Positions 36,201-39,200 of a stretch of DNA of 64,000 nt are shown here, piece by piece. The DNA comes from Eledone cirrhosa. Its lineage: Eukaryota. Each line of letters begins with the position of its first letter. Positions within the stretch are counted from its first letter, which is position 1. Position numbers and translations under genes: made by a program. Location of the stretch: positions 34,410,001 to 34,474,000 of the forward strand of contig OZ024757.1 in assembly GCA_964016885.1 (NCBI GenBank), given 5' to 3'. The notes beneath the pieces are model-generated. The model saw only the letters and a list, made by a program, of their open reading frames with translations. It was not told where the DNA came from and made no database searches.

Positions 36201-39200
36201 CAGATGCCAATATAATATCAAAGATTAGTGAAAAGGAGAATATCTATGCAGAACTAGTGAGACGCTTCCGTGCAAGCGAGACATGGTCTCCCGACCATTC
36301 CCACATCAAATGGAACAAAACCGTCTAACCCATGCTAGCGTGGAAGATGGACATTAAACGATGATGATGACATATATATATTTATATATATATATATATA
36401 TATATATATATATATATATAACGAAGTAACCATTATATACTCACTATGTCATCCATCATACCAATTACATTTCCAGTAGGATCCACAACACTTCGCTTCC
36501 TAAATCGATGCATTGTAATAATTTTCAATTATAATCACAATTAATTATCAATTAATTATTATAATAAAGATGATTAATTGTTATTATGTAGCTGTTAGTT
36601 TTTTTTTCCTTATTTTTTTCACTGTATTTTCACCGATTCCGAGTATAATTTCCAAGTACATAAGATAATGGAATCCTGGGTCTCATGTCTTTTCAGTTTG
36701 AATCGAAAACATTCTGTTGTCTTTCACTGTGATAAACTTCGCTGTTTTGTAACCATATTTCTAATAGAATACACTGCCTGTGGTTTACAGACTATTTTCA
36801 AAATAATCCAGAATTTTAGAGGAGTTTAATAATATAATTAGCTTTCCAGTTATTAAGTCAGGTTTTGAACATAGCTTAATGAAAATTCTTCCATAAAATT
36901 ATGACTGAAAGGTTTTTAGATAAATAAAAAACACTTTAGGGCACATAGTTTTGTATATAGATCCAGGGGCAGTTTCTGGTTGTTTGGTATCTTGAGGATT
37001 TACTCCGCTTGCCTTAAATTCAAGCCTGGTTTAAAAAGTTATTATCATCAAAATCTTCATAATCAACACTGAGCAAATTATTATCGTTGTTGTTGTTATT
37101 TATTTTCACTTTGAGTCTTTTTTCTACTGAAATAAATGTAAATGTTTCATGATTTGTCTTTGTTTTATTTTTCTCACCATTTTGGTGAATTGTTAGTATC
37201 ATCATCATCATCATGTTTGTGACTATTTCAGAACTTCTACTGTACTACTAGGCTGGTAGAGTGTCTACTGCACCACCAGATCATAGACTGCACTACTAGG
37301 TCAGTAGAGCATCAACTATACCATGAGGTCAGTAGTTGACTACTGCACCATCTGGTCAGTAGAGTGTCAACTGTACCACTAGGTCAGCGGAGCATCTAAT
37401 GTACCACCAGATGTACCAGTGTATTCCAAAAAGCTGTGCAGGATTACCTTTCAGAGAGTTTGCAAGCTACATCTGTTTTGCATATGTTCATCATTATTAT
37501 TATTGTAAACCCCCCCAGTGTCCCTGTCTTTTTGGATTGTCCCCTATATGTGGGCTCTAGTGGCCAATAAAGAAATTATTATTATTTTTTTTTTTTTTTT
37601 TTTGCAGTGCAGAGATTTTTTACAATCCCAGGTGGGTCATTACCTGTGACCTGAGGACAAGAGAAGGTAAGTTGAATGTCTAGTTAATTTACCTTTCATC
37701 TCCCTGCATAAGTGGTGGGTTGGGATGTCATAAAGACACATAATTTGCAGCAAGAAATTTATGTTTTCTACACATAACTTGGCATTGAATATATACGGAG
37801 TGTACAAGTATATAAAGTCTGTAATTGAGATTAGGTGGTGTAGTGGTATTGCCACATGTGTGTGTGGGGGTTAGTGGATGGTTAATTCTAATAGCTTTCA
37901 TTTTATTTATCATATCCTGTGTTGATTATTGCATGTTTTATATTAATTTTATGGTTATTTTTTCAAATTTCTTTTATCCAATTAATCTATCTTTTGTATA
38001 AGTCTTTGCCTCTAACCTACTTTTTTATATTACGCTGAGTCTTTGGGGAATACAATCAAGGTTTGCCCCAGGCAGGCATCACCAGGGCTCTGCACACTTC
38101 TGCCCCTCTGTTTATAATGTTTGCTATATTATATATAACATTGTCTGTCTAGCTCCACATGTGTTGTAACCCCTATGTTTAACATTGTCTGTCTAGCGTC
38201 ACATGTATTGTAACCTCTATGTATATAATGTTTACTGTATTATGTATAATATAGTTCAGTCGCACATGTAATATGACCCCTACATGTATAATGTTTTCTG
38301 TATTCCTTTGTACAAGCCCATGTAGCTTGTTATTATTATCATTATTATTGTGATGTTGTTGTTAGAGTTATTGATGATAGTTAAAATATCCAAGAAAGTA
38401 AAATGCTGAATCAGACACCAGACATCAGAACCAGACGTTTTAAACCATACATCAGATGCCAGATGTTGTATGGATGTTGGTTCACTATTTCTCAGTTTTA
38501 AACCAGACACCAGATGTTGTATGGATGTTGGTTCAGTTTTTCTCAATTTTAAATAAATGTCCTGCAGAGGAAGTCCATTAAAATATCATCCATGTCTCCT
38601 GAGTTAGTAAACTCAACAGTAACATAACGCAGAATCCTGCTGGCTTCTCTTCTCTTCTCTTTCCACAGTTAATACTCGTGTGTCATTGGTCACCACAGTT
38701 GGTATATATGTATAGATAGCTAACACATCATCGTCATCATCATCATCATCATCATCATAACTATAAGCACTTTAACAATACATCACTACCACCAACATAT
38801 CAGGCTGGAAACATGTAAAAAAATGATTTATCTCACTGCCACCACCACCACCCTAATGTATCGACGACAACAACAACATTAACATCACCAACATCACCAC
38901 ACTAGCACAGTTATTATAACTAACACCATACCACATCATCAATATAATTTCCACAAATTTAGTTTATTTGTACTTAATACTAATACCATCACCACCCTCA
39001 TCACTACCGTCAGCATTGCCATCACCACCTTCATCATCATCATCATCATCACCATCCTAAGCCGGTATCAGTAATACTATACCACCACACATTCACAGCA
39101 TATCTAGTAGTTCCATGACAAAACCATTACCTACCATTGGTATACTCCAAACCACCACCACCATACCACCACCACCACCACCACCACCATAACACCACCA

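What the first reader, a model, noticed from the sequence alone, without database searches (positions are those of the whole stretch)
36445..36513. Candidate internal first exon giving a PAS-less, hERG1b-like Elk isoform with an RXR motif
Seen: a non-repetitive 69-nt ATG-led frame ([23 protein letters not shown]) lies in the 12-kb intron between the proximal N-terminal exon and the S1 exon. It has in-frame stops upstream and ends at a consensus gtgagt donor in phase 0, which fits the S1 exon (LQEAVSG...). Known: mammalian ERG1b uses an internal first exon to swap the PAS-containing N-terminus for a short peptide with an RXR ER-retention signal, and it alters gating in heteromers. Inference: a convergent 1b-type isoform (RFRKR contains RXR) in an invertebrate Elk channel, which I do not know to be described.
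Basis: partly seen in the sequence, partly recalled or inferred. Interest (0 to 1): 0.75.

Follow-up and report, generated by a model that had tools for sequence, protein, structure and literature searches.

The report
Octopod PAS-less Elk channel start exon
This short stretch is an alternative start exon of an octopod Elk potassium-channel gene, conserved in four related species whose database gene models already use it; it likely makes a subunit without the PAS regulatory domain that would close faster, but the proposed ER-retention motif is not conserved.

Summary
The 69-nt frame, upstream stops and phase-0 gtgagt donor are as described (minus strand). That anatomy alone is chance-level: 4 such frames lie in this intron, 2 on the antisense strand. 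Conservation singles this one out. Database Elk (KCNH8-like) models of Octopus sinensis (RefSeq X6), O. bimaculoides (RefSeq X5) and O. vulgaris start with an orthologous 23-mer (17-18 of 23 identical) joined to the same S1 exon; Argonauta hians has a diverged 22-mer (9 of 23). All lack PAS. The join falls two residues from the hERG1a/1b join. So the PAS-less, ERG1b-like design is supported, but it is already in annotation. The RXR claim is not supported: RXR occurs in 1 of 5 species, and the conserved part is the C-terminal half of the peptide. Most likely the exon yields an eag-less subunit that weakens slow open-state stabilisation (inferred from Elk deletion mutants). No RNA run of this species was available; the transcription start and heteromer formation are untested. 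No paper on such an Elk isoform was found.

The parts
36445..36513 (-). Coding part of the alternative first coding exon ('1b'), 23 codons, A at -3 of the ATG
   Evidence: orthologous N-termini in XP_036367963.1, XP_052831364.1, CAI9738248.1, GAB1606937.1
36439..36444 (-). Splice donor gtgagt, phase 0; the donor after the S2-S3 exon (ends 27458) has the same hexamer and also A at -1
36514..36593 (-). AT-rich putative 5' UTR with six in-frame stops; possible acceptor AG at 36593-36592 (would give a 147-nt exon); transcription start unknown
   Evidence: inferred, no RNA
29068..29305 (-). S1-S2 exon, phase-0 acceptor shared by long and short isoforms
41544..41680 (-). N-linker exon of the long isoforms (bypassed by 1b); itself contains RKR and RGR strings
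52193..52318 (-). PAS exon (second part), bypassed by 1b
52639..52866 (-). PAS exon (first part), bypassed by 1b; its two alternative upstream first exons lie outside the window
5531..27615 (-). Remaining shared exons of the Elk gene (S3-S6, C-linker, CNBHD, C-terminal tail)

Best explanation
The frame is a conserved alternative first coding exon of the octopod Elk (Kv12-type) channel gene that likely splices to the S1 exon and would give a subunit lacking the whole PAS-cap, PAS and N-linker, predicted to close faster and to lose voltage-dependent potentiation. Shown: sequence, phase, conservation, and the same join in four relatives' gene models. Inferred: an internal promoter in the intron drives it; short subunits form channels alone or with long subunits of the same gene, and each short subunit removes one PAS-CNBHD contact, so the 1b:1a ratio would tune how long the channel stays open after depolarisation. 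The conserved C-terminal half of the peptide likely stands in for the end of the N-linker ahead of S1; the basic tip tolerates R/K/Q change and is not a fixed RXR signal.
For: Orthologous starts joined to the same exon in O. sinensis X6, O. bimaculoides X5, O. vulgaris (17, 18, 17 of 23 identical) and Argonauta (9 of 23); 0 of 5000 shuffles reach each score, whereas an unrelated short first exon scores at chance (1738 of 5000). Identity to Octopus (74-78%) exceeds that of the C-terminal tail exon (66-68%) and is like the linker exon (78%). Pfam finds no PAS in 3 of 3 short models scanned, and PAS in 2 of 2 long ones. Elk identity: groups with vertebrate KCNH8/KCNH4 apart from ERG, 100/100; a C-linker/CNBHD exon scores 105 bits on PDB 3ukn (zebrafish ELK, label recalled) against 62-67 on hERG and EAG chains. 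The other KCNH-like S1 exons found in the genome are 38-42% identical, so no second close Elk copy was seen. First residue of the shared exon aligns to hERG 375; hERG1a/1b are identical from 377 (10.1101/2021.12.20.473560, passages). Deleting the eag domain cuts the prepulse shift from -54 to -12.7 mV in zebrafish ELK (PMC5440166, passages) and gives very fast tails and loss of mode shift in human Elk1 (PMC4621751, passages). Assembly is within subfamily (PMC9989356, passages).
Against: No spliced read or transcript was seen for this species or any other; the relatives' records are predicted models whose read support I could not inspect, and later annotations may have copied earlier ones. The Argonauta cluster holds only this one model. 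The conservation excess over the tail exon is small for 23 residues, and no neutral DNA comparison was possible. Gating consequences come from vertebrate deletion mutants that keep the N-linker, which 1b also loses. A possible acceptor at 36592 leaves open that the exon is spliced from a more distant non-coding exon, or into long transcripts as a stop-bearing cassette.
Confidence: 0.72

Rival explanations
1. Full hERG1b mimicry: the RXR in the peptide retains short subunits in the ER until they co-assemble with long subunits.
For: This species has two overlapping RXR (R3-x-R5, R5-x-R7), 52-56 residues before the S1 WDW motif, like hERG1b R15-x-R17 at 53-55 residues. F-R-K-R resembles the Kir6.2 LRKR signal, and R-based signals follow one consensus in yeast and mammals (PMC2064757, passages). 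The tip stays basic in all five species.
Against: RXR in 1 of 5 species; the three Octopus have Q3 and K5, Argonauta has R-K-E. RXR appears in 24.6% of shuffles. The long N-terminus has RXR strings too. In a 23-residue exon any tip motif lies at about that distance from S1. That lysine cannot replace arginine in such signals is recalled, not read here.
Confidence: 0.15
2. The basic tip is a kinase site and/or PIP2-membrane contact that regulates the short subunit, standing in for the basic tip of the lost PAS-cap.
For: [RK][RK]x[ST] (PKA-type consensus, recalled) is present in 3 of 5 species, and a basic residue at position 5 in 4 of 5. In Elk1, cap residue K5 enhances PIP2-dependent open-state stabilisation (PMC4621751, passages).
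Against: The serine is lost in O. sinensis and O. vulgaris. K5 acts with the eag domain in place. Such short motifs are common by chance.
Confidence: 0.15
3. The exon is conserved but mainly regulatory: an internal stop-bearing cassette or a minor transcript, with little functional short protein.
For: Possible acceptor 78 nt upstream gives a 147-nt exon with stops in frame after the linker exon; a constitutive acceptor of this gene has a similar A-rich ctaacag context. No RNA seen.
Against: A poison cassette needs no conserved ATG or peptide, yet start Met, open frame, length (22-23) and a shared C-terminal pattern persist in 5 of 5 species, with mostly conservative changes.
Confidence: 0.08
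4. A chance intronic frame that gene predictors picked up.
For: Similar frames are common: 4 sense, 2 antisense in this intron.
Against: Only this frame matches relatives' annotated starts; E 1.5e-15; homologous peptide even in Argonauta.
Confidence: 0.03

Closest known systems
Predicted KCNH8-like short isoforms of octopods (XP_036367963.1 O. sinensis X6; XP_052831364.1 O. bimaculoides X5; CAI9738248.1 O. vulgaris; GAB1606937.1 Argonauta hians)
   Same: Orthologous start peptide, same join, no PAS.
   Different: They lack RXR. They are automatic models with no functional study found.
Mammalian ERG1b (KCNH2 short isoform)
   Same: Short unique N-terminus replaces PAS and N-linker; join within two residues of the same position.
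   Different: ERG not Elk subfamily; 36 versus 22-23 residues; RXR retention and 2:2 heteromers are shown for hERG1b (10.64898/2026.02.20.707017, passages) but RXR is not conserved here and heteromers are untested. Homology of the peptides was not tested (no hERG1b sequence in session).
Engineered eag-deleted Elk channels (human Elk1 delta2-136; zebrafish ELK delta-eag)
   Same: Elk without the eag domain; functional, fast-closing, little potentiation.
   Different: Artificial, keep the N-linker, have no replacement peptide.
Eag-less Erg genes of cnidarians and bilaterians
   Same: Natural loss of the eag domain in KCNH channels (PMC9989356 and 10.1101/2025.09.21.677649, passages).
   Different: Described for Erg only and as gene-level loss; here it is isoform-level in Elk.
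Lineus longissimus KCNH8-like X10/X11 models (XP_064646362.1, XP_064646363.1)
   Same: PAS-less Elk models with their own start.
   Different: Unrelated peptide, joined further upstream so that the RRRSRAVLY linker helix is kept; suggests independent origin.

Membership tests
Elk (Kv12) subfamily of KCNH channels | Core sequence groups with KCNH8/KCNH4, apart from ERG | tested here: met
   19 rows, 100/100; no EAG rows in the tree; closer to 3ukn than to hERG or EAG chains; best named hits KCNH8/KCNH4-like
Elk (Kv12) subfamily of KCNH channels | S1-S6 plus CNBHD; PAS in the long isoform | tested here: met
Elk (Kv12) subfamily of KCNH channels | Voltage-dependent potentiation of the long form | not testable with these tools
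   needs electrophysiology
ERG1b-type isoform | Short unique N-terminal peptide replaces PAS and N-linker just before S1 | tested here: met
   (by phase and by relatives' models)
ERG1b-type isoform | Transcribed from an internal promoter as a true first exon | tested here: inconclusive
   only DNA runs listed; possible upstream acceptor
ERG1b-type isoform | Conserved N-terminal RXR retention motif | tested here: not met
   1 of 5 species
ERG1b-type isoform | ER retention alone; rescue and heteromer formation with the long subunit | not testable with these tools
   needs co-expression
ERG1b-type isoform | Product of an ERG (Kv11) gene | tested here: not met
   gene is Elk; it works like ERG1b in design but is not a member

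The most novel reading that the evidence does not exclude
Octopods independently evolved an ERG1b-style isoform in Elk at the same junction, as part of a set of up to four alternative N-termini (intact PAS-cap, replaced cap, two PAS-less), and use it in heteromers to dial voltage-dependent potentiation by cell type; in this species an RXR tip additionally enforces assembly with long subunits as in hERG1b.
Probability: 0.2. Interest if true: 0.65.

Novelty: new variant of a known kind. Interest (0 to 1): 0.4.

Why it matters
Natural loss of the eag/PAS domain is described for Erg channels; in Elk it has been studied only through engineered deletions in the papers I read. A conserved natural PAS-less Elk isoform gives a ready test of whether native Elk currents are tuned by long/short subunit mixing as cardiac IKr is, and suggests the junction before S1 is a repeated site for swapping KCNH N-termini. 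The value is moderate because the isoform already sits in public gene models and the RXR link does not hold up.

Tried and rejected
Expression: the look-up of sequencing runs listed no RNA holder; the 3 runs found are one sample, and each covers the whole 856-nt stretch, intron included, in one contig, i.e. DNA, possibly this assembly's source. This is no evidence either way. A search of short proteins (30-483 aa) with residues 1-45 of the O. sinensis short model found nothing. Squid/cuttlefish-type clusters: 0 of 6 listed proteins that reach the S1 exon have a short unique start; absence is weak evidence. The O. vulgaris Iso-Seq annotation of PMC9699675 (data S1 zip) was not readable as text and one PDF supplement was not searched; it may hold direct junction evidence. 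AlphaFold2 model of the O. sinensis short form: mean pLDDT 46.8, residues 1-53 under 50, helix 15-28 at low confidence; not used. The sigma-70 promoter scan does not apply to an animal gene. My first donor-score filter missed this very donor, so it was replaced by a plain GT[AG]AG count. Three papers looked up by recalled id (Martinson 2014 twice, an arginine-signal review) were not held. Earlier-findings look-ups returned nothing.

Full report
Observation. On the minus strand an ATG at 36513 opens 23 codons that end at 36445, followed by gtgagt. Six in-frame stops lie within 63 nt upstream. The frame sits in the 12.2-kb intron between the N-linker exon (41680-41544) and the S1 exon (from 29305); both boundaries are phase 0. 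Joined by coordinates to the next three exons it reads 223 codons without a stop. It is outside tandem repeats and has one match in the 3.0-Gb genome. The anatomy alone is not unusual: 4 sense and 2 antisense frames of 15 or more codons with a phase-0 GT[AG]AG end occur in this intron.

The gene. Twelve to fourteen exons map by tblastn from 52866 to 5531. A tree of 19 channel cores places it among octopods (99/99) inside a branch with vertebrate KCNH8/KCNH4, apart from two ERG rows (100/100); no EAG rows were included, and its place relative to Argonauta and Octopus is weak (84/81). A C-linker/CNBHD exon scores 105 bits on PDB 3ukn (zebrafish ELK; label recalled, consistent with PMC7515569 passages) against 62-67 on full-length hERG and EAG chains. 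Three other KCNH-like S1 exons in the genome are 38-42% identical. It is the Elk gene.

Conservation. Searching with the S1 exon returned 19 proteins of 53 candidates; cluster listings added isoforms. O. sinensis X6 (XP_036367963.1), O. vulgaris CAI9738248.1 and O. bimaculoides X5 (XP_052831364.1) begin with a 23-residue peptide 17, 17 and 18 of 23 identical to ours, followed directly by the S1 exon; Argonauta hians GAB1606937.1 begins with a 22-residue peptide, 9 of 23 identical. None of 5000 shuffles reached the score in any of the four; an unrelated short first exon scored at chance (1738 of 5000). The identity to Octopus (74-78%) is above that of the C-terminal tail exon (66-68%) and close to the linker exon (78%). 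Pfam finds no PAS in the 3 octopod short models scanned and PAS in the 2 long ones. These records are predicted models; that RefSeq alternative isoforms usually rest on aligned transcripts is recalled, and I could not inspect their reads.

The RXR claim. Residues 3-8 read RFRKRS here, QFKKRS in O. bimaculoides, QFKKRA in O. sinensis and O. vulgaris; Argonauta has RKES at 3-6. RXR is present in 1 of 5 species, [RK][RK]x[ST] in 3 of 5, a basic residue at position 5 in 4 of 5, and the pattern D-x3-[NH]-V-[IL]-G-[MI]-M-D-[DE]-[IM] (drawn from these same five peptides) in 5 of 5. RXR appears in 24.6% of 20000 shuffles of the peptide, and the long N-terminus carries RKR/RGR strings too. A species-specific retention signal is therefore not excluded, but it cannot be why the exon is conserved.

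Likeness to ERG1b. The first residue of the shared exon aligns to hERG residue 375; hERG1a and 1b become identical at 377/37 (10.1101/2021.12.20.473560, passages). The design is the same: everything ahead of the pre-S1 segment is swapped for a short peptide. Membership fails on subfamily and on RXR, so it works like ERG1b in layout but is not ERG1b.

Mechanism. Shown: sequence, phase, conservation, relatives' models. Inferred: an internal promoter; translation from 36513 (A at -3; the nearest upstream ATG at 36661 is out of frame and closes before it); a subunit without cap, PAS and linker. In zebrafish ELK, eag deletion cuts the prepulse shift from -54.0 to -12.7 mV (PMC5440166, passages); in human Elk1 it gives very fast tails and a mode shift of about -6 mV (PMC4621751, passages); both deletion channels conduct. 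The PAS-CNBHD contact is between subunits and assembly is within subfamily (PMC9989356, passages), so mixing short and long subunits would grade closing speed and potentiation. Open point: an AG at 36593-36592 could be an acceptor, giving a 147-nt exon with stops in frame, so the transcription start may lie further up.

Wider picture. The own genome has two first exons for the PAS-containing forms, at C18:34553323-34553400 (100% to O. sinensis X2 start, with the PAS-cap) and C18:34504877-34504945 (70% to X1 start, cap replaced), each with a gtaag donor. O. bimaculoides X6 and O. sinensis X5 use a second, unrelated PAS-less start at the same join; it was not found in the window or genome. Among 153 stored Elk-like proteins with an S1 anchor and the Elk-type pore motif, 11 have S1 within 110 residues of the start: 6 octopod models with unique peptides, 1 Lineus model and 4 that begin at a Met next to PEYK. 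A second Lineus model (S1 at 114) fell just outside that cut; both Lineus forms keep the linker helix. This set is the best 120 of 5968 hits plus 21 clusters listed (three of them listed 15 of 17-28 members), not a census; arthropod and mammalian Elk isoforms were not surveyed.

Literature. Seven searches aimed at an Elk, KCNH or cephalopod PAS-less isoform listed no such paper; I saw listings and abstract starts only, and subscription journals are mostly missing. Passages read: PMC7515569, PMC5440166, PMC4621751, PMC9989356, PMC2064757, PMC2901339, PMC9699675, 10.1101/2025.09.21.677649, 10.64898/2026.02.20.707017, 10.1101/2025.01.30.635714, 10.1101/2021.12.20.473560. Two of these state eag loss for Erg channels only. 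The Iso-Seq annotation in the supplement of PMC9699675 could not be read and may bear on the junction.

Verdict. A real, octopod-conserved PAS-less Elk start exon (about 0.9), already in public gene models, not found in print, with no conserved RXR. New variant of a known kind; interest 0.4.

Noticed in passing
G000:C18:34504877-34504945 (-), locus L003: Second first exon for the PAS-containing form; replaces the conserved PAS-cap with an unrelated 26-27-residue peptide, conserved with Octopus X1/X2 models (70%). Would be a cap-less, PAS-bearing Elk.
   Followed up: partly
G000:C18:34553323-34553400 (-), locus L002: Canonical PAS-cap first exon, about 90 kb upstream of the first PAS exon, 26 of 26 identical to O. 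sinensis.
   Followed up: partly
proteins P0026, P0028 (O. bimaculoides X6, O. sinensis X5): A second PAS-less start exon at the same join in two Octopus species; no match in this window or genome.
   Followed up: partly
window 13699-13640 (-): C-terminal alternative exon: Octopus models use a long form, a short form or skip it. Here a TAA follows three codons after the early donor (aaaag|gtacag), so only the short form or skipping stays open.
   Followed up: partly
window 35807-36328 (+): 173-codon open stretch just inside the intron after the 1b donor that looks like the endonuclease end of a non-LTR retroelement (recalled motif likeness; no Pfam hit).
   Followed up: partly
window 29879-30496 (+), 39606-40145 (-), 40516-40908 (+), 54957-55430 (-): Mutually similar open stretches resembling RTE-type LINE C-termini (recalled; two scanned, no meaningful Pfam hit).
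   Followed up: no
window 10275-12492: About 2.2 kb of CA/CT-rich simple repeat with extreme GC skew (-0.97) in an intron of the gene.
   Followed up: no
proteins P0188, P0190 (Lineus longissimus X11, X10): PAS-less Elk models in a nemertean with a different start and join.
   Followed up: partly
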